Notes: generated by a model from the sequence alone, not told the origin. A stretch of DNA of 64,000 nt from Deltaproteobacteria bacterium (GCA_031285295.1 JAITWK010000025.1:2967-66966), one strand, 5' to 3'; shown: positions 29,486 to 35,747, counted from the stretch's first letter. Program-made: numbers and translations.

Positions 29486-30835
29486 TCAAAACGTGAACGC
29501 CAGGCCAAGCGTCAGAAGATGTTGATCATAGGTATAGAGATCAGAGCTGGAGTTGTTGTTCGTATACTGCCAGCCCATCTCAAGCTGGACGCTCTCGGCA
29601 ATCTGTTTGATAACCATTGCGGACGCCCGCCATTGCGTATCTTTCCGCTTTGCATCGTCAAGAATTGTGGCTCCGCCTTTATAATCTTCGTTATGCCATG
29701 CGCCGCTGAGAATAAGTTCCGTTTCCCATGGCAGGTTCAGAAAGAGAAAAACGCCCGGTTCAATCCCGGAAAAGCTATACCGACGTTCATCGGTAGCACT
29801 CATATAACCCTTAACGCCGGCCATCAGGCTGTGCTTCGCCTCACCGAAAAACCAACGAGCATACGGGCCACCCCAGGCGTATGTGCCGCTGCGGTCTCTG
29901 ACCGCAATGTCCTCGCGGTGCTCAATGCCACCTTGTCCGATAAGATGCAGATTGTCCCGTGCGGCAAAGACCAATGATGCTTCGCTTCCATACAGAGCCA
30001 CGGATTTTTCCTCATTTTCCAGCAACAGTTCCGTTTTTAGGCGGACTTCAGCCATAAGAGAATTCTCAAGATAACGCAGACCAACGGCAGCTCTGCCGAA
30101 GGTCATATCCCGGCGCGGCGTAGTTTCATTGTACCAGCGCTGATATCCGGCCACATCACCCACCAGCCACCAGGGCGAATCCGCCGAGGCTCGCCAGCCC
30201 ATATCAATCACGCCATGCAGGTAGCTGCCCATTGACTCCCGCTCGGAACTCTCCCGGTCAAGATAGATAGGCAGTCTGCCAACCATAACGTCGCGCCCGG
30301 CGGGGCCGGTGGTCATATTGCTGTCGTAGATCATACCGCCCGCAAGGCGTCCTTTGACTCTGAAGCTATCGACCCGCTGTTCCATACTCGCAAGCGCCTT
30401 GCCCATATCGCCTTCGGCAATGGAAGGATCAAGCCGTTTCGCCTCGGCCAGTTCCGCTTTTGCCGCTTCATTCTGTCCCATGGTCAGCAGCAAATGGGCG
30501 AGTTCCAGGCGCAGTATGGCATTCTCCGGCAAAGTTTCGATAAGACGTTCGTAAGCCATGCGGGAATGGTTGTATTTCCCGGCGAGCTTGGCGGAACGCG
30601 CCAAAGCCAGGTTGACCTCGAAATCATCCGGGGTTTCGCGCAACAGGTTCAGATACAGCGCGAAGGCTCCGGCATGATCCCCGGACTGCATCAAAGATGC
30701 GGCGTCTGCCTTGCCGGAAGACAGGGATGCCGCTACCGCCGCGCTGGCAGAAAAAGACCAGAGCGGCGGCAGCAGGGTGATAGTCAGAAACAGAACCAGA
30801 ACGGCATGGCGGAAGAGTGGCATGGTATTCTTCAT
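29486..30835 (-). CDS. outer-membrane protein with N-terminal TPR and C-terminal beta-barrel, Slam/DUF560-like (type XI secretion candidate)
   Basis: 449 aa. Signal peptide, then TPR-like helices (GAFALYLNLLRETPDDFEVNLALARSA..., MGQNEAAKAELAEAKRLDP). About 290 aa of alternating beta-strand pattern follows (GGMIYDSNMTTGP...). It ends in the OMP-type LTLGLAFTF. Confidence 0.5.
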   Translation of the reverse strand: MKNTMPLFRHAVLVLFLTITLLPPLWSFSASAAVAASLSSGKADAASLMQSGDHAGAFALYLNLLRETPDDFEVNLALARSAKLAGKYNHSRMAYERLIETLPENAILRLELAHLLLTMGQNEAAKAELAEAKRLDPSIAEGDMGKALASMEQRVDSFRVKGRLAGGMIYDSNMTTGPAGRDVMVGRLPIYLDRESSERESMGSYLHGVIDMGWRASADSPWWLVGDVAGYQRWYNETTPRRDMTFGRAAVGLRYLENSLMAEVRLKTELLLENEEKSVALYGSEASLVFAARDNLHLIGQGGIEHREDIAVRDRSGTYAWGGPYARWFFGEAKHSLMAGVKGYMSATDERRYSFSGIEPGVFLFLNLPWETELILSGAWHNEDYKGGATILDDAKRKDTQWRASAMVIKQIAESVQLEMGWQYTNNNSSSDLYTYDQHLLTLGLAFTF

Positions 30836-30837
30836 GG

Positions 30838-32043
30838 TTATTGTTTAACACCGTGTCCGCTGCCGCTGCCGGAACTACCACCCACTGCGCCTGAATAATT
30901 GAGATTCATATCCCTGCCGTTCGTTTTTCCTGTCACGTTCAGATGATCACCAGATTGGCCCAGAGGAGCTTCCACACCCAAGTCCACCAAAGGGTCATTC
31001 GGAAGAGCCGTAAAGCTGAAGTTCCCCCCTTTGTCCAGCGTCGCGATATTGCCGCTTCCACTGACACTGAAGGCCAGGTTCGCCAGCCCCCCATCATCAA
31101 TCTGCATGTCAACAGAATTGATCGTAGGTGTATTTGCGAGATCCGCAATGCCTATGCTGAAACTGCCGGTTCCGGGGTTGCCGCCGAAATTTGCGCTCAG
31201 CGTGCCCGCATAGGTTCCGCTGAACGATGCCACCTGCTGCAAGTCGGCTCCGGGCTTTGCTATGCCCGTTCCACCGGAACCCGGATCCAGCACAACATGA
31301 TCATCCTGCGGAATAAACGGTGCTTCCGGCACTTCCACCTGCGCAAGATCCAGAGGAAGCGTTGTCGTTTCCTGTGCATCAGCAATTTCGCCCACAGAGA
31401 GAAAGCCCTGTTCCGGGCCGTCTGTTGCTCCCTTACGGAAAAGCAGCGTGGTGCCGGGTATACCCATGGGATATGCCTGACCAGTCAGCTTGTCGCGGAT
31501 GTAGAGGGAGTTGGGTGAAGAGGACTGCACCAGGATAACCTTGGTAGCGTCCGCAATCTTTTCCACAATGACCTCGGTTCCTCTGATACCTACCTGTACC
31601 TCAGAGGTTTCCACACTCATGGCGCTGGGATCACCTTCGGTTATTCTGCCGCTGATCAGACGGGTCACGCCCTTGGCAAGATCCAGATTCAGCGCATTTT
31701 TCACGCTCCCGCTCTCGGAATAGATATATTCAGTGATGGTCGCCTGGGAATCCGGGGCCAGCATCAGCACGGAATCATCCAGAAACAGAACGTTGAGCCT
31801 GCCGACCGGGCTGGTGTTCAGCGTATCGCCGGAAAACACCGGACTTTTTCCGGCCAGCGGTTCCTGCGTTGCTGCCCGGTCAGCCCAGGCTTGTTTACGG
31901 GCGGCGATAACATTACCCGCAGTTTCCACGCCAAGAGCGGGGCTGACCGCAAACACGGCGATCAAAACCGCGAAAAGCGGTGCGGTAAAAAAGGGACACT
32001 GCCATAAGGGGCGGGTTACGCATTGCATGGCATCCTCCATCAT
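30838..32043 (-). CDS. secreted FecR-domain protein with a Gly-rich beta C-terminal domain
   Basis: Signal peptide (LFAVLIAVFAVSPALG). The FecR-like part includes VFSGDTLNTSPVGRLNVLFLDDSVLMLAPDSQATI and VGIRGTEVIV. The C-terminal part reads FSGTYAGTLSANFGGNPGTGSFSIGI...LAFSVSGSG...FSFTAL...LNVTGK. The gap to the Slam-like gene is 2 nt (stop at 30838, next start at 30835). Confidence 0.6.
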   Translation of the reverse strand: MMEDAMQCVTRPLWQCPFFTAPLFAVLIAVFAVSPALGVETAGNVIAARKQAWADRAATQEPLAGKSPVFSGDTLNTSPVGRLNVLFLDDSVLMLAPDSQATITEYIYSESGSVKNALNLDLAKGVTRLISGRITEGDPSAMSVETSEVQVGIRGTEVIVEKIADATKVILVQSSSPNSLYIRDKLTGQAYPMGIPGTTLLFRKGATDGPEQGFLSVGEIADAQETTTLPLDLAQVEVPEAPFIPQDDHVVLDPGSGGTGIAKPGADLQQVASFSGTYAGTLSANFGGNPGTGSFSIGIADLANTPTINSVDMQIDDGGLANLAFSVSGSGNIATLDKGGNFSFTALPNDPLVDLGVEAPLGQSGDHLNVTGKTNGRDMNLNYSGAVGGSSGSGSGHGVKQ

Positions 32044-32062
32044 TCGTAAATTGCTCAGGTTG

Positions 32063-32878
32063 TCAGCGCGGGGGCGCGATTACATAGTGCTTTGTCAACA
32101 CCAGCAGCAGCACCGGGGGGTCAAAGCCCAATCTGGCAGCCGTAGCTGTATTCAGTGAAAACAGGGGCGGCAGATTCGGAGTGAAAGTTGCATCTTCCAT
32201 GCCAGAGCCTTCCTGCATAAGAAAAGCGGCCAGTTCCCGATTCAGGCGCTCACCGTTACCGGCCCACGGTGCTATAAGCGCACCATGTTCCGTAGCGGTA
32301 TGGTCGGTGGCACTGATGGGCATGATGCCCCGGCTGAGCAAAAGTTCCAGCAATTCCGCAGAATTCTGATTGTCCGGCGCAAAGCAAGCGGAGCCATCAA
32401 GCAACAACGCGTCTATTTCGTCGAAAAACAAGGAATCTACGGCTTCGCGGCATCCAGCGGCATCTGCCTGCTGCAAATCCGTATAAGTAAAGAGTGTAAA
32501 CCCGGAACTGCCTGCCCCGGAGGAGTATAGTTTTGATGCGGCAACTTTGTTGGCGGCATCCAGCAACAGCGTCGAAATACCTTGCTCTTCGGCAGGGGCT
32601 GATTCCGGCGCTTTGATGCTGCCAAGGCGCGAGAACTGCGTGACCTCGTGCAAGGTTAGCACGAGGTTGATCCAGACTTCCTTGTTTTCCCGCAAGGCAC
32701 CGGGGATGCCGTTGAAGGAGGCAGACGGGCTTTGCCCGTCGCGGGCACAGGGGGGCGCCGGGGGGGGAGTCCCCCCGATATGATCCGAAGGCGCGGCTAA
32801 ACAAGAATGCCGTGCGTCCAGAAGGAGGAAGACGACGCATGACAGGCATATGAAAATGACAGCAAAGAGGGTTCGCAT
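32063..32878 (-). CDS. periplasmic protein, ABC_sub_bind/YfiR-like C-terminus (weak)
   Basis: Signal peptide MRTLFAVIFICLSCVVFLLL. The C-terminal FSLNTATAARLGFDPPVLLLVLTKHYVI resembles the end of uncharacterised ABC-type substrate-binding proteins. Confidence 0.4.
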   Translation of the reverse strand: MRTLFAVIFICLSCVVFLLLDARHSCLAAPSDHIGGTPPPAPPCARDGQSPSASFNGIPGALRENKEVWINLVLTLHEVTQFSRLGSIKAPESAPAEEQGISTLLLDAANKVAASKLYSSGAGSSGFTLFTYTDLQQADAAGCREAVDSLFFDEIDALLLDGSACFAPDNQNSAELLELLLSRGIMPISATDHTATEHGALIAPWAGNGERLNRELAAFLMQEGSGMEDATFTPNLPPLFSLNTATAARLGFDPPVLLLVLTKHYVIAPPR

Positions 32879-32884
32879 AAAAGC

Positions 32885-32905
32885 GGGTATGCAATTTGCA
32901 TTCCC
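32885..32905. promoter_or_regulatory. 21-bp near-perfect palindrome giving sigma-54-like GG-N10-GC on both strands
   Basis: GGGTATGCAATTTGCATTCCC, with 9 of 10 arm positions pairing. The plus strand gives GG(32886-7)...TTTGCA(32895-32900). The minus strand gives GGAATGCAAATTGCA. It lies in the 56-bp divergent spacer. Confidence 0.45.
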
Positions 32906-32934
32906 GGAAAAGATATAAACGAGGGGAAAAACAT

Positions 32935-33264
32935 ATGGATATAACTGTCTCGCAAGATGGCCGCTTCACGCTTGTTGCCTTACGCGGCGTTCTCGATGCC
33001 CTTACCGCGCCAGAGCTTGAGGAAAAAAATCAGCAAATTGTTGATAACGGCGCAACCATTGTCATTCTTGATCTTTCAGCCATGGAGTTCATCAGTTCAG
33101 CGGGTCTGCGTGTGTTTCTATCGCTGGCCAAAGCGCTGCGAAAAACGGGAGGAGAAATTCGTTTTGCAGGCTTGCAGGAGGCCATACGCGAAGTGTTCGC
33201 CATTTCCGGCTTTACAAAAATGTTCGCCGTTTTTCCTGATGCTGCTACAGCGGCCAAGGATTAG
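32935..33264 (+). CDS. STAS-domain anti-sigma-factor antagonist (SpoIIAA/RsbV/BtrV-like)
   Basis: MDITVSQDGRFTLVALRGVLDALTAPELEE...LDLSAMEFISSAGLRVFL carries the conserved phosphorylatable Ser context. Confidence 0.88.
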   Translation: MDITVSQDGRFTLVALRGVLDALTAPELEEKNQQIVDNGATIVILDLSAMEFISSAGLRVFLSLAKALRKTGGEIRFAGLQEAIREVFAISGFTKMFAVFPDAATAAKD

Positions 33265-33282: not shown

Positions 33283-33771
33283 GTGCAAACGCTTTCATGC
33301 ATAACCACAGCGGAAGACATCCGCCTGGTGGAAAACTCAATCCTTGCCATTGCCGATGAGCGGGCGGTCGATTCGCTTTCCCGTGCCCGGATGCAACTGG
33401 TTCTTGATGAGATGCTTACCAATATCCGTTTCCACAGTTACCCGGAAGGTCCGGGCTCTATTCATATCATTATCTATCCGCAGGTCGGTGACGGAGACTT
33501 CATTCTCCATTGTGTCATCCAGGATTGGGGGCCTGAGTTCAATCCCCTGGTCGATAGCCCAAAGCCAGAATTGTGGGAAAATATTGAAGAAAGGCCCATC
33601 GGTGGTCTGGGACTACATCTGGTTCACAATATGCGCTGCGGTCTCAGATATGAGCGGGTACGGGAAGGTGCGCCATCTGCGGGCCGGAACGAGCTTACAC
33701 TCAGCTTTCCCCTGCGCTGCGGGCCGGGGGGATTACCGGAGAAATTCACTCCGCCGGGTAGCTCCTCCTGA
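33283..33771 (+). CDS. anti-sigma-factor-type Ser/Thr kinase (RsbW/SpoIIAB/BtrW-like, HATPase_c)
   Basis: N-box LVLDEMLTNIRFHSY, G1 IQDWGPEFNP and G2 RPIGGLGLHLV. GTG start preceded by GGGGGAG. Confidence 0.85.
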   Translation: MQTLSCITTAEDIRLVENSILAIADERAVDSLSRARMQLVLDEMLTNIRFHSYPEGPGSIHIIIYPQVGDGDFILHCVIQDWGPEFNPLVDSPKPELWENIEERPIGGLGLHLVHNMRCGLRYERVREGAPSAGRNELTLSFPLRCGPGGLPEKFTPPGSSS

Positions 33772-35747
33772 TGCTGCGCTCCATAAGAACCCGATCTATC
33801 AGAACCAGACTGGCCTTTGCTGGCGCTATTCTGGTTCTTTTGACTGCCGGAAGTCTTATGTGGTTCGCGCACAAGGACACCGTTACCGCCTTGCGTACCC
33901 TAGAGCGCCAAGGGCTCAACAATGTGATCTATCTTCTGGAACGCGAGCTGACCGCCGCGCATAGTGACGCCCTGAAGGCCAAAATCACGGCTGTGGAAAA
34001 TATAAAAACCATGCTCCGCCAGACGGGGGAGGCGGCATGCGCCATTCTGGGCGAAACCGCCGACATGGAAGAATCTCAAAGACGTGAGTTACTCTCCCTC
34101 TGGGCGGATACTCCGGCTGTTCCGGATCTTCATATCCGTTTTTTTCAGATCGATGAGGACGCAGAGGGGTTACACCCATCGTGGCCTCGGGGGGCTACGG
34201 GGGGTGCAGCCCCTCGGCATGAATACAAGGCTCTGCCCGAACCAGCACAAAAAGCCATACCATCCCTTCTGGCAGGCAGCGCCGGTGAATTCATTCCTGA
34301 TGGTGAAGCTCTGGCCTGGATAACCAAACATGACAACATGGTTGTGCTGTGTTCCTACTCTCTCAAAGATGCGGTTGACGCGGCGAAAGCAAATCTTGCG
34401 GTTGTGGCGGAGCGTTTCAAAGAATTATTGCGGCAGGTTGACATACAGGAAACCGGGTTCGCCGCCGTACTGGATGCTTCCGGCCGTATTGTGGCAGGGC
34501 CTGAGCATGCGGTCATTCCGGACAAACTGTGTGAAACACTTCTCGCTGGAACATTTTCCGGCGCAGCGCGGCGCGTCATGGTTCTCCGGGAGGAAGGTGA
34601 AAGCGATCAGGCCAAAAGTGCATCACCTAGCGAAACCCTTTATCTTCTCGGCTATTTTCGTCCGCTGCAATGGCATATCGTGCTGTCCGCCCCTTTGGAT
34701 GAATTGGAAGCTCCCGCCTACGCGCTTGTGGACGGGCAACTGCGAATAACCTTTGCCGTGCTAGCGGCCGGACTCCTGCTGGGCTTTATCATCGCAGCCC
34801 GCATCGCAAAGCCGATCCGCCGTTTGGCAAACCTTGCCAGAGAGTTGCCGGAGCAGGACATTTTAAGTCTTGATACTGCCGCTTTGACCAGGAAACTGCC
34901 CTTACGGCGCAAGGATGAGATCGGCGAACTGGCTCAGGCGTTTGGGCACATGGCTAAAGAATTGCAAACAAACGTCACACGTTTGGTCGAATCCACAGCC
35001 GTGCGCCAACGCATGGAAAAAGAGCTGCAAGTTGCCCGCGACATACAGTATGGCATTCTGCCAACGGTTTTTCCTGTAGGTACAGCGGTTGATCTGTATG
35101 CCGCCATGCGAACCGCCAGAGAAGTTGGCGGGGATCTCTATGACTTTTTCTTCCTCGATGAGCGCCGTCTCTGCTTCGCCATCGGCGATGTGTCGGACAA
35201 GAGTATTCCGGCGGCACTCTTTATGAGCATGACCGTGACCCTGCTCCGGGTCGCCATGCGTGACGAAGGCCTGTCGCCGGAAGCGGCTATGGCCCGCGTG
35301 AATGACGCCTTGGCGGCTGACAACCCCCGCATCATGTTTGTCACTCTGTGCATCGGCGTGCTTGATATGGTTTCAGGCGAGGTAGTGTACAGCAGTGCCG
35401 GGCATATGCCCCCTGTGCTGATAGGCGAGAGCGGCGCATGTTCCCTTCCGCGCTCCGGTGATATGGTGGCCGGTGTTTTTGAGGGAGACAGCTTTGTCAG
35501 CATACGGCACGTTATGCAGCCCGGCGAGACTCTTTTTCTCTATACCGACGGCGTTTCCGAGGCCATGAATGCCGCGAGGGAACAATATGGAGAGAAACGC
35601 CTTTTAGCGCATCTGACGGATTGCTACGGCATACCCTCTACCGAAACGGTCGGTTCCGTCTTCCGAACCGTGGATGAACACGCGGGCGACGAAGAGCAGT
35701 CCGATGATATAGCCATCCTGACAATACGCTACCTTGGTAAACGCTGA
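33771..35747 (+). CDS. membrane sensor PP2C (SpoIIE/RsbU/BtrU-like) phosphatase with a periplasmic domain and HAMP
   Basis: TM1 (LAFAGAILVLLTAGSLMWFA), about 290 aa extracytoplasmic, then TM2. HAMP region (RRKDEIGELAQAFGHMAKEL). The PP2C part includes ARDIQYGILP, REVGGDLYDFFFLDERRLCFAIGDVSDKSIPAALFMS, YSSAGHMPP, LYTDGVSEA and DDIAILTIR. Confidence 0.9.
   Translation: MLRSIRTRSIRTRLAFAGAILVLLTAGSLMWFAHKDTVTALRTLERQGLNNVIYLLERELTAAHSDALKAKITAVENIKTMLRQTGEAACAILGETADMEESQRRELLSLWADTPAVPDLHIRFFQIDEDAEGLHPSWPRGATGGAAPRHEYKALPEPAQKAIPSLLAGSAGEFIPDGEALAWITKHDNMVVLCSYSLKDAVDAAKANLAVVAERFKELLRQVDIQETGFAAVLDASGRIVAGPEHAVIPDKLCETLLAGTFSGAARRVMVLREEGESDQAKSASPSETLYLLGYFRPLQWHIVLSAPLDELEAPAYALVDGQLRITFAVLAAGLLLGFIIAARIAKPIRRLANLARELPEQDILSLDTAALTRKLPLRRKDEIGELAQAFGHMAKELQTNVTRLVESTAVRQRMEKELQVARDIQYGILPTVFPVGTAVDLYAAMRTAREVGGDLYDFFFLDERRLCFAIGDVSDKSIPAALFMSMTVTLLRVAMRDEGLSPEAAMARVNDALAADNPRIMFVTLCIGVLDMVSGEVVYSSAGHMPPVLIGESGACSLPRSGDMVAGVFEGDSFVSIRHVMQPGETLFLYTDGVSEAMNAAREQYGEKRLLAHLTDCYGIPSTETVGSVFRTVDEHAGDEEQSDDIAILTIRYLGKR

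What the first reader, a model, noticed from the sequence alone, without database searches (positions are those of the whole stretch)
29486..32878. Possible type XI (Slam/DUF560-like) secretion operon with a FecR-domain cargo candidate, divergent from the T3SS regulators
The last gene encodes a signal peptide, N-terminal TPR helices and a ~290-aa beta-barrel-like C-terminus ending in ...LGLAFTF. That is the architecture of Slam/DUF560 outer-membrane translocators. Slam substrates are typically encoded next to the translocator and carry a C-terminal small beta-barrel targeting domain. The gene immediately upstream (2-nt gap) encodes a secreted, non-lipoprotein FecR-domain protein. Its C-terminal ~130 aa is Gly-rich with alternating beta strands (FSGTYAGTLSANFGG...FSIGI...LAFSVSGSG...FSFTAL...LNVTGK). 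A FecR-domain T11SS cargo has not, to my knowledge, been described. Its location inside a T3SS island suggests a surface-exposed factor co-regulated with host contact.
Basis: inference. Interest (0 to 1): 0.6.

Follow-up and report, generated by a model that had tools for sequence, protein, structure and literature searches.

The report
Slam-type secretion pair with FecR cargo
A Desulfovibrio-like gut bacterium encodes a divergent Slam/type 11 outer-membrane pore beside a new kind of partner protein (a FecR signalling domain on a TbpB/fHbp-like barrel tail), and this pair is always encoded next to a phosphatase-based switch, often inside type III secretion islands, so it may carry outer-membrane signals to that switch.

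Summary
The 449-aa protein is a divergent DUF560/Slam (T11SS) outer-membrane protein. AlphaFold (pLDDT 93.5) gives a TPR domain plus a 14-strand barrel, and 37 of 43 relatives hit Pfam SlipAM, although the window's own copy scores just below the cut-off. The 401-aa protein has a Sec signal peptide without a lipobox, a FecR β-sandwich, a disordered linker and an eight-strand C-terminal domain. The best PDB fold matches of that domain are known or proposed Slam substrates: fHbp, TbpB, NHBA, hemophilin and PmSLP-1. This tail has no Pfam model. It forms a small family of 225 clusters, nearly always at the extreme C-terminus. It also occurs on non-FecR proteins, and 9 of 9 of those are encoded beside a Slam-like gene. 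It was found only in genomes that carry the Slam-like gene (27/27 against 0/167). The sister clade sits beside CHASE2 cyclases. The window's clade is always (6 of 6) divergent from a STAS/RsbW/sensor-PP2C switch and has a conserved third gene of 271 aa; T3SS genes are adjacent in 4 of 6. I read it as a T11SS-type pair (~0.8) that probably acts as an envelope input to the switch (~0.5). It is a new variant of a known kind.

The parts
32063..32878 (-). First gene of the operon: a 271-aa exported protein of unknown fold ('p271'). It is a conserved member of the module in the window's clade.
   Evidence: ORF. No Pfam, NCBIfam or PDB sequence hit. Homologs occupy the same position in 6 of 6 loci of the clade, E 1e-17 to 1e-38, with the shared motif CREAxDSLFFDxxDALLLDGSxCFAP.
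30838..32043 (-). FecR-tail protein (401 aa): unlipidated Sec signal peptide, FecR domain, disordered linker and C-terminal 8-strand barrel. Candidate T11SS cargo or partner.
31402..31923 (-). FecR beta-sandwich domain (aa 41-214).
   Evidence: Pfam PF04773 E 4e-9. AF2 pLDDT above 90. Foldseek matches PupR cell-surface-signalling domain 6ovk (E 2e-5) and anti-sigma factor 4m0h.
31219..31401 (-). Linker (aa 215-275). It is largely disordered, and in relatives it is often a long Pro/Ser/Thr-rich stalk.
   Evidence: AF2 pLDDT below 50 for aa 233-269. Linkers in relatives, e.g.
30841..31218 (-). C-terminal 'tail' domain (aa 276-401): eight beta strands. A new sequence family with a TbpB/fHbp/NHBA-like small-barrel fold. 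Proposed Slam-recognition or targeting domain.
   Evidence: AF2 strands 276-286, 289-302, 305-316, 325-335, 341-346, 367-374, 378-387, 390-400. Foldseek fHbp 2w81 E 1.5e-4, TbpB 4o49 E 2e-4, NHBA 6cuj (21% identity, rmsd 4.0 A over 140 columns), hemophilin 7rea, PmSLP-1 9b3h. No Pfam or PDB sequence hit. 225 representative clusters in the exhaustive search.
29486..30835 (-). Slam/DUF560-like outer-membrane protein (449 aa). Candidate T11SS translocator.
30371..30757 (-). Periplasmic TPR domain of the Slam-like protein (aa 27-155).
   Evidence: TPR_19 E 2e-9 and TPR_Slam 35.1 bits against cut-off 35.2. AF2 helices 27-155.
29489..30364 (-). 14-strand beta barrel of the Slam-like protein (aa 158-449).
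   Evidence: AF2 shows 14 long strands at pLDDT about 95. The best barrel matches are the 14-stranded OmpG (TM-score normalised by target length 0.65-0.69) and CymA. SlipAM matches aa 334-447 at E 0.0025.
32879..32934 (.). 56-bp divergent intergenic region between the operon and the partner-switch operon. It contains the palindrome TGCAA-T-TTGCA at 32890-32900.
   Evidence: Sequence. No sigma-54 consensus there.
32935..33264 (+). STAS-domain protein (anti-anti-sigma type). First gene of the divergent partner-switch operon.
   Evidence: Pfam STAS E 5e-21. Conserved divergent position in 6 of 6 loci.
33283..33771 (+). RsbW-like serine kinase (HATPase_c_2).
   Evidence: Pfam E 6e-15. Conserved in 6 of 6 loci.
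33771..35747 (+). Membrane sensor phosphatase: periplasmic (weakly Cache-like) domain, HAMP, then SpoIIE/PP2C. Proposed receiver of the envelope signal.
   Evidence: Pfam SpoIIE E 2e-46, HAMP E 3e-11, weak dCache and Cache_3 hits. Conserved in 6 of 6 loci.

Best explanation
Genes 2 and 3 of this operon are a type 11 (Slam/DUF560-family) outer-membrane translocator and its dedicated, unlipidated partner protein. The partner is exported to the periplasm by Sec. Its C-terminal eight-strand barrel, a new sequence family with the TbpB/fHbp/NHBA-like fold, is the element recognised by the Slam-like 14-strand barrel, and the N-terminal FecR domain is the functional head. Up to this point the account rests on shown structure and linkage. 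The next step is inferred. The pair works as the outer-envelope arm of a signalling pathway, not as a simple secretion system for a surface factor. The FecR head, held at or passed through the outer membrane by the tail-Slam interaction, would control the periplasmic sensor domain of the neighbouring inner-membrane enzyme. Here that enzyme is the HAMP-PP2C phosphatase, which drives the STAS/RsbW partner switch of the T3SS island. In the sister clade it is a CHASE2 adenylate/guanylate cyclase. Either tethering of the FecR head or its removal from the periplasm by export (as with the secreted regulators ExsE and FlgM) could be the signal. The conserved 271-aa exported protein is a third component of unknown role.
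For: The OMP belongs to the Slam family. SlipAM and TPR_Slam hits are just below cut-off for this copy. SlipAM hits 37 of 43 relatives (best E 1e-12) and TPR_Slam 39 of 43. The paralog on contig 12 is above the cut-off. AF2 gives a TPR domain plus 14 strands at pLDDT 93.5, with 14-strand OmpG and CymA as the best barrel matches. The partner has cargo architecture: signal peptide, FecR domain, disordered linker and 8 strands. After the FecR-type hits, Foldseek lists fHbp, TbpB, NHBA, hemophilin and PmSLP-1. The tail is a modular domain tied to the Slam clade. It sits at the extreme C-terminus in nearly all of 225 clusters and is repeated up to about 10 times in one protein. It is found on at least 9 non-FecR proteins, all 9 encoded directly beside a Slam-like gene. 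It is present in 27 of 34 Slam-positive and 0 of 167 Slam-negative genomes, p = 2e-27. For the signalling link: 13 loci have a CHASE2 cyclase adjacent, often with a GAF-HD protein. In the window's clade 6 of 6 loci have STAS/RsbW/HAMP-PP2C divergent from the operon, including two with no T3SS gene nearby. The tree separates the two context types. The literature documents FecR-domain proteins partnered with CHASE2 sensors (PMC5192318, PMC9239204) and an OM barrel protein, NsrA, that relays an external signal to CHASE2 cyclases (PMC7529298, PMC13001267).
Against: No experiment bears on any step, and everything about translocation is by analogy. The window's own OMP scores below both Pfam cut-offs. 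The tail has no sequence-level similarity to TbpB_B_D or lipoprotein C. Most Foldseek hits to Slam substrates are whole-chain alignments with high rmsd and E only 1e-4 to 1e-2, and lipocalins and nitrobindins also match, so the fold evidence says 'small 8-strand barrel' more firmly than 'T11SS cargo barrel'. About half of the FecR-Slam loci have no sensor gene adjacent. One clade member lacks the FecR gene and one has a FecR protein with no barrel. The PP2C periplasmic domain shows no similarity to CHASE2, so a common docking mode is not shown. Known unlipidated T11SS cargo is released from the cell, which fits poorly with signalling to a periplasmic domain unless export itself is the signal. 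Adjacency to regulators could equally mean that the operon is their target.
Confidence: 0.6

Rival explanations
1. This is an ordinary T11SS secretion operon whose FecR-domain cargo is a surface or secreted factor such as an adhesin or a ligand binder. The neighbouring partner switch or cyclase only regulates its expression, so the pair is an output of the regulators and not their input.
For: All characterised T11SS cargo ends up outside the cell (PMC12282271). Divergent transcription from regulators is typical of regulated target operons. There are weak NCBIfam similarities to the Leptospira FecR-domain surface proteins Lsa33 and LipL45. About half of the FecR-Slam loci have no sensor next to them. 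T3SS genes are adjacent in 4 of 6 loci of the clade.
Against: The conserved neighbours are membrane sensors with periplasmic domains and enzymatic outputs (PP2C, cyclase), not DNA-binding regulators. The same pair is linked to two unrelated sensor classes in two clades. FecR-domain proteins partner with CHASE2 sensors in other phyla without any secretion system (PMC5192318). The six-gene module persists where no T3SS gene is nearby.
Confidence: 0.25
2. The Slam-like protein does not translocate anything. It is an outer-membrane anchor or receptor, and the tail barrel docks on its periplasmic TPR domain or plugs the barrel. The whole FecR protein therefore stays periplasmic, like FecR under FecA, as a static trans-envelope bridge.
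For: The FecR fold is periplasmic in all characterised systems (PupR 6ovk is the top hit). Long Pro-rich linkers resemble periplasm-spanning stalks. NsrA is an OM barrel with a large periplasmic part that signals to CHASE2 cyclases (PMC7529298). One relative fuses a peptidoglycan-binding OmpA domain to the Slam-like protein.
Against: The family is homologous to proven translocators. The tail has the fold of translocated substrates. Proteins with about 10 tandem tails, or with unrelated N-domains, look like exported surface proteins more than periplasmic bridges.
Confidence: 0.12
3. The TPR-barrel protein is an exopolysaccharide export porin of the PgaA/BcsC kind, and the FecR gene is an unrelated neighbour.
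For: BcsC is the top Foldseek hit, and there are weak NCBIfam hits to BcsC and PgaA through the TPR region.
Against: The barrel has 14 strands, not 16. The hits to BcsC and PgaA cover only the TPR part. SlipAM is the barrel family detected. No polysaccharide synthase genes are adjacent. The tail-domain gene is linked to the OMP in 9 of 9 non-FecR cases and in the phyletic pattern.
Confidence: 0.03

Closest known systems
Type 11 secretion systems, soluble-cargo branch (HrpB-HrpC, HsmA/HphA hemophilin secretors, TepS-Pls) and Slam1/Slam2 with TbpB, LbpB, fHbp and HpuA
   Same: An outer-membrane protein with periplasmic TPR repeats plus a 14-strand DUF560 barrel. The partner gene is directly adjacent. 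The partner has a Sec signal, a variable N-terminal head, often a disordered or Pro-rich stalk, and a C-terminal 8-strand barrel with the TbpB/fHbp-like fold. An unlipidated partner also occurs in the hemophilins.
   Different: The barrel tail belongs to no known cargo sequence family (no TbpB_B_D or lipoprotein C hit). The head is a FecR signalling domain, not a nutrient- or host-factor-binding handle. No TonB-dependent receptor or metal or haem genes are nearby. The conserved neighbours are signalling enzymes. The host lineage is Desulfovibrionaceae, outside the groups treated in the T11SS papers I could read.
CHASE2 cyclase / phosphodiesterase / 'FecR-domain outer membrane protein' / TPR-protein gene cluster noted in Campylobacterota (PMC9239204), and LysM-FecR + CHASE2 histidine kinase operons (COG4254; PMC5192318)
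   Same: A FecR-domain exported protein is encoded with a membrane sensor. The paralogous locus in this very genome (contig 12) has exactly CHASE2 cyclase + GAF-HD + FecR-tail + TPR-barrel.
   Different: Those reports do not identify the TPR protein as a Slam/T11SS member or the FecR protein's tail as a cargo-type barrel. In the window's locus the sensor is a HAMP-PP2C phosphatase with STAS and RsbW-like partners, not a CHASE2 enzyme, and there is an extra conserved 271-aa gene.
[quoted passage not shown]
   Same: This is the only experimentally supported case I found in which an outer-membrane beta-barrel protein is required to pass an external (protein) signal to inner-membrane sensors of the class linked to the sister clade.
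   Different: NsrA is one large protein of about 1,200 aa. I could not obtain its sequence or the primary paper, so homology to either gene here is untested. Its output is cAMP, not a partner switch.
FecA-FecR-FecI / PupB-PupR cell-surface signalling
   Same: The same FecR fold (Foldseek top hit PupR, 6ovk) and the same logic of an outer-membrane barrel communicating with a FecR domain in the periplasm.
   Different: There is no cytoplasmic anti-sigma domain or transmembrane helix (only a cleavable signal peptide), no ECF sigma factor and no TonB-dependent transducer. The OM partner is a Slam-type barrel.
RsbU-RsbV-RsbW-type partner switching in T3SS loci (Bordetella BtrU/V/W; Chlamydia RsbU/V/W; recalled from my own knowledge)
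   Same: A STAS protein, an RsbW-like kinase and a PP2C phosphatase are encoded in a T3SS island. The Chlamydia RsbU also has a periplasmic sensor domain.
   Different: None of those systems is described with an adjacent Slam-like/FecR pair. The input signal of such switches is generally unknown.

Membership tests
T11SS / Slam outer-membrane protein (Pfam SlipAM/DUF560, PF04575) | Match to the PF04575 barrel model at or above the curated cut-off | tested here: inconclusive
   The window protein scores 17.9 bits against a cut-off of 22, E 0.0025, covering only the last third of the model. The paralog on contig 12 scores 25.4 bits, above the cut-off. 37 of 43 aligned relatives hit at E <= 0.01, best 1e-12. 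One relative aligns to model positions 9-278 of 288.
T11SS / Slam outer-membrane protein (Pfam SlipAM/DUF560, PF04575) | N-terminal periplasmic TPR domain | tested here: met
   TPR_19 E 2e-9. TPR_Slam scores 35.1 bits against cut-off 35.2 and hits 39 of 43 relatives. AF2 helices span 27-155.
T11SS / Slam outer-membrane protein (Pfam SlipAM/DUF560, PF04575) | 14-stranded beta barrel (16 in PgaA-like outliers; PMC8406197) | tested here: met
   The AF2 model (pLDDT 93.5) has 14 long strands between aa 158 and 448. The best barrel matches are OmpG and CymA, both 14-stranded.
T11SS / Slam outer-membrane protein (Pfam SlipAM/DUF560, PF04575) | Translocates a partner protein across the outer membrane | not testable with these tools
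   Needs co-expression and surface-exposure or secretion assays.
T11SS cargo | Sec (or lipoprotein) signal peptide | tested here: met
   The N-terminus is hydrophobic and followed by ...SPALG/VE, with no lipobox cysteine. All relatives have similar signal peptides.
T11SS cargo | [quoted passage not shown] | tested here: inconclusive
   Fold: 8 strands at aa 276-400, and Foldseek hits to fHbp, TbpB, NHBA C-domain, hemophilin and PmSLP-1 at E 1.5e-4 to 4e-2. Sequence: no Pfam hit for 10 tails at E <= 10, and no PDB sequence hit with the tail profile.
T11SS cargo | Encoded next to its T11SS outer-membrane protein | tested here: met
   The gap is 2 nt in the window. A FecR-tail gene is adjacent in about 22 of 31 loci. 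Non-FecR tail proteins are adjacent in 9 of 9 cases. The phyletic pattern is 27/27 against 0/167.
T11SS cargo | Beta-strand 'handle/pedestal' region in front of the barrel | tested here: not met
   In the model a disordered linker (aa 233-269), not a handle, precedes the barrel. The head is a FecR beta-sandwich.
FecR-type anti-sigma regulators (FecIRA cell-surface signalling) | Pfam FecR domain / PupR-like fold | tested here: met
   PF04773 E 4e-9. Foldseek PupR 6ovk E 2e-5.
FecR-type anti-sigma regulators (FecIRA cell-surface signalling) | Cytoplasmic anti-sigma domain plus a transmembrane helix, with an adjacent ECF sigma factor and a TonB-dependent transducer | tested here: not met
   The protein starts with a signal peptide directly followed by the FecR domain. 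The neighbours are STAS, RsbW, PP2C, a CesT chaperone and an effector-like gene; none is an ECF sigma factor or a TonB-dependent receptor.
CHASE2-sensor / FecR-protein modules | CHASE2-domain sensor encoded beside the FecR protein | tested here: not met
   It is absent from the window's locus and from all 6 loci of its clade. It is present at the paralogous locus of the same genome (CHASE2 E 1e-60) and at 13 loci of the sister clade.
Exopolysaccharide export porins (PgaA/BcsC) | 16-strand barrel and a linked polysaccharide synthase operon | tested here: not met
   The barrel has 14 strands. NCBIfam hits to BcsC and PgaA are far below cut-off and limited to the TPR region. There are no synthase genes nearby.

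The most novel reading that the evidence does not exclude
A Slam/type 11 secretion pair has been recruited as the sensory front end of a partner-switching pathway. The state of the FecR-tail protein at the outer membrane (tethered, plugged or exported through the Slam-like barrel, possibly gated by surface or host contact) is read by the periplasmic domain of the HAMP-PP2C phosphatase. That in turn sets the STAS/RsbW switch and the expression of the adjacent type III secretion genes. This would supply the long-missing input for this class of T3SS-linked partner switches and would show a secretion system reused for trans-envelope signalling.
Probability: 0.35. Interest if true: 0.85.

Novelty: new variant of a known kind. 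Interest (0 to 1): 0.68.

Why it matters
Only a handful of T11SS cargo types are known, all tied to nutrient capture or host-factor binding in Proteobacteria. This finding adds a cargo-type barrel that current models do not detect, a FecR signalling head as passenger, and a new host lineage. The strict linkage of the pair to two kinds of membrane sensors gives a concrete, testable hypothesis for two open problems: what CHASE2 domains and T3SS-associated RsbU-like phosphatases actually sense, and whether an outer-membrane translocator can serve as a signalling device. The tail-domain profile also offers a way to find further cargo of this Slam clade.

Tried and rejected
1. Sequence-level membership of the tail in known cargo families. 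Pfam on 10 tails at E <= 10 and the tail profile against PDB sequences found nothing, so the claim rests on fold only.
2. PDB sequence search with the Slam-like profile gave TPR hits only. No Slam structure is in the PDB copy.
3. The search for related loci in named genomes failed. The alignments were too divergent, and the single-protein scan returned only a TPR match in a Bryobacteraceae MAG. I therefore have no named-taxon distribution beyond the source labels 'Desulfovibrio sp.' and one 'Betaproteobacteria bacterium'.
4. The idea that the PP2C sensor's periplasmic domain is CHASE2-like: BLASTP shows no similarity.
5. The idea that the operon has a sigma-54 promoter like the T3SS operons: there is no match in the 56-bp upstream region. 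The sigma-70 scan gave nothing above background.
6. My guess that the 271-aa protein is a periplasmic-binding-protein fold: no Pfam or PDB support.
7. The PgaA/BcsC porin reading is rejected on strand count and context.
8. The NsrA primary paper (PMC5952392) is not held, so homology of NsrA to these genes is untested.
9. Neighbours of FecR-Slam pairs that lack a sensor turned out to be housekeeping genes, so sensor linkage is frequent but not universal.

Full report
**What is in the sequence**

The last two are separated by 2 nt.

Pfam finds a FecR domain in the 401-aa protein (E 4e-9). In the 449-aa protein it finds TPR repeats plus two Slam-specific models, both just below their curated cut-offs: TPR_Slam at 35.1 against 35.2 bits, and SlipAM/DUF560 at 17.9 against 22 bits, E 0.0025.

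Across a 56-bp intergenic region lie a STAS protein, an RsbW-like kinase and a membrane HAMP-SpoIIE(PP2C) phosphatase with a weakly Cache-like periplasmic domain.

The surrounding island is a genuine T3SS. It has a CesT chaperone, a sigma-54 activator, and SctC, D, J, N, Q, T, W and V. Source labels on homologs say 'Desulfovibrio sp.'. The genome is 2.6 Mb.

**The outer-membrane protein is a divergent Slam/DUF560 member**

- The same genome has a paralog on contig 12 that passes the SlipAM cut-off.
- In an alignment of 43 relatives, 37 match SlipAM (best E 1e-12) and 39 match TPR_Slam when scanned one by one.
- One relative aligns to nearly the whole SlipAM model.
- AlphaFold2 on this alignment gives pLDDT 93.5. 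The model has a helical TPR domain (aa 27-155) followed by 14 long strands. The T11SS literature uses this strand count to tell the family from 16-strand PgaA-like proteins (PMC8406197).
- The PDB holds no Slam structure. The best barrel matches are the 14-strand OmpG and CymA. BcsC ranks first only because it also combines TPR with a barrel.

**The FecR protein is built like T11SS cargo, with a barrel of a new sequence family**

The AF2 model (pLDDT 82.5) shows four parts:

- a signal-peptide helix;
- a confident FecR β-sandwich (aa 41-214);
- a disordered linker (aa 233-269);
- a C-terminal domain of exactly eight strands (aa 276-400).

Foldseek first finds FecR-type cell-surface-signalling domains (PupR 6ovk, 4m0h). 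After those it finds fHbp, several TbpB structures, the NHBA C-domain (21% identity, rmsd 4.0 Å over 140 columns), hemophilin and PmSLP-1, alongside generic small barrels such as lipocalins.

At sequence level the tail matches nothing in Pfam or the PDB. The fold evidence is therefore suggestive and not conclusive on its own.

**Genomic linkage makes the case**

A profile of the tail (132 positions) finds only 225 representative clusters among 1.84 billion proteins. In almost all of them it lies at the extreme C-terminus.

- Most hits are FecR + tail proteins.
- Some proteins carry 2 to about 10 tandem tails.
- At least 15 full-length, signal-peptide-bearing proteins have unrelated N-terminal regions.
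- I examined nine of those non-FecR proteins. All nine are encoded directly beside a Slam-like gene on the same strand.

In a sample of 201 genomes of the same family, the tail occurs in 27. All 27 are among the 34 genomes that have a full-length Slam-like gene, and none of the 167 without one has the tail (Fisher p = 2e-27).

A variable head on a constant C-terminal barrel, always beside the DUF560 gene, is how T11SS cargo is recognised in the literature (PMC12282271). That literature does not mention FecR cargo, CHASE2 or Desulfovibrio.

**Context points to signalling**

Gene maps of about 31 loci show a FecR-tail gene immediately next to the Slam-like gene in about 22. In 13 of them a CHASE2 adenylate/guanylate cyclase is adjacent, often with a GAF-HD protein. 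This includes the paralogous locus of this genome.

A maximum-likelihood tree separates these from the window's clade (18 sequences, support 100/99). In the window's clade, all six loci whose context I could see have the same six-gene layout:

- HAMP-PP2C, RsbW-like and STAS on one strand;
- a homolog of the 271-aa protein, the FecR gene and the Slam-like gene on the other.

T3SS genes are adjacent in four of the six. Two have none within reach, so the conserved partner is the switch and not the T3SS.

Independent literature links FecR-domain proteins to CHASE2 sensors (PMC5192318). It notes a CHASE2 cyclase / phosphodiesterase / FecR / TPR-protein cluster in Campylobacterota without recognising the T11SS connection (PMC9239204). 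It also shows that an outer-membrane barrel protein, NsrA, relays an external protein signal to CHASE2 cyclases in S. meliloti (PMC7529298, PMC13001267).

**Interpretation**

*Shown:* family membership of the OMP at clade level, the 14- and 8-strand predictions, the modularity of the tail, and its strict linkage to the Slam clade.

*Inferred by analogy:* the tail is what the Slam-like protein recognises, and the partner is translocated or held at the outer membrane.

The signal could be tethering, or depletion from the periplasm by export (the logic of ExsE and FlgM; my own knowledge). The data cannot tell which.

**Caveats**

- About half the loci have no adjacent sensor.
- One clade member lacks the FecR gene and another has a FecR protein with a Pro-rich repeat but no barrel. 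Two have split FecR genes.
- The PP2C periplasmic domain is unlike CHASE2.
- No sigma-54 site precedes the operon.
- The 271-aa protein remains unassigned.

**Relation to earlier notes of this scan**

Other agents flagged Slam-like + FecR + CHASE2 trios in at least 31 other genomes. I treated these as leads. I verified the trio independently at this genome's contig-12 locus and in 13 related loci.

The window's locus is a distinct variant. It has the same pair, a different sensor class, an extra conserved gene and frequent T3SS association.

**Verdict**

It is a new variant of a known kind: a T11SS with a new cargo barrel family, a FecR passenger and conserved coupling to a partner switch. Interest 0.68.

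Noticed in passing
G000 contig 11, 29294-32853 (outside the window): A third FecR-tail gene (C11:31648-32853) has no Slam-like neighbour. It lies directly behind an autotransporter-like gene (repeat-rich passenger plus C-terminal barrel ending ...LQLKFEF). That gene's reading frame is interrupted by one in-frame stop at C11:30335-30337.
   Followed up: partly
L042 566-5218 (G106:C149): A giant 1,551-aa protein with one FecR domain followed by about 10 tandem copies of the tail domain, directly upstream of a Slam-like gene. Similar multi-repeat proteins of about 1,000-1,100 aa (P0030, P0033, P0037, P0039) appear in the exhaustive search.
   Followed up: partly
L065 3490-9632 (NCBI GCA_965328695.1 contig): A Slam-like gene and a non-FecR tail protein (P0110, 497 aa) are followed by an 834-aa eukaryote-type protein kinase gene and a CesT-family chaperone gene. 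This is another juxtaposition of this Slam clade with T3SS-effector-like genes.
   Followed up: no
L078 6701-7852 (NCBI GCA_025996925.1, labelled Betaproteobacteria bacterium): The FecR protein of this clade member has many EPQPPVV(V) repeats and a Gly/Asn/Pro-rich end instead of the barrel tail, yet it still sits between the p271-like and Slam-like genes.
   Followed up: no
L059 5716-7794 (G021:C57): A 693-aa Slam-like protein with an N-terminal OmpA-type peptidoglycan-binding domain fused in front of the TPR and barrel. The FecR-tail gene lies downstream instead of upstream.
   Followed up: no
window 32890-32900: Palindrome TGCAA-T-TTGCA in the middle of the 56-bp divergent intergenic region between the 271-aa gene and the STAS gene. 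It is a possible operator shared by both operons.
   Followed up: no
L072 3048-4235 (G071:C36) and L077 6806-7987: In two relatives the FecR-tail gene is split into two ORFs, with the FecR part and the tail part in different frames. This is either a frameshift pseudogene or an assembly error.
   Followed up: no
L050 6411-7271 and L029 (G199, G163): Some FecR proteins near Slam-like genes end in a strongly acidic Asp-rich tail (...DDDDLDDDDD) instead of the barrel domain.
   Followed up: no
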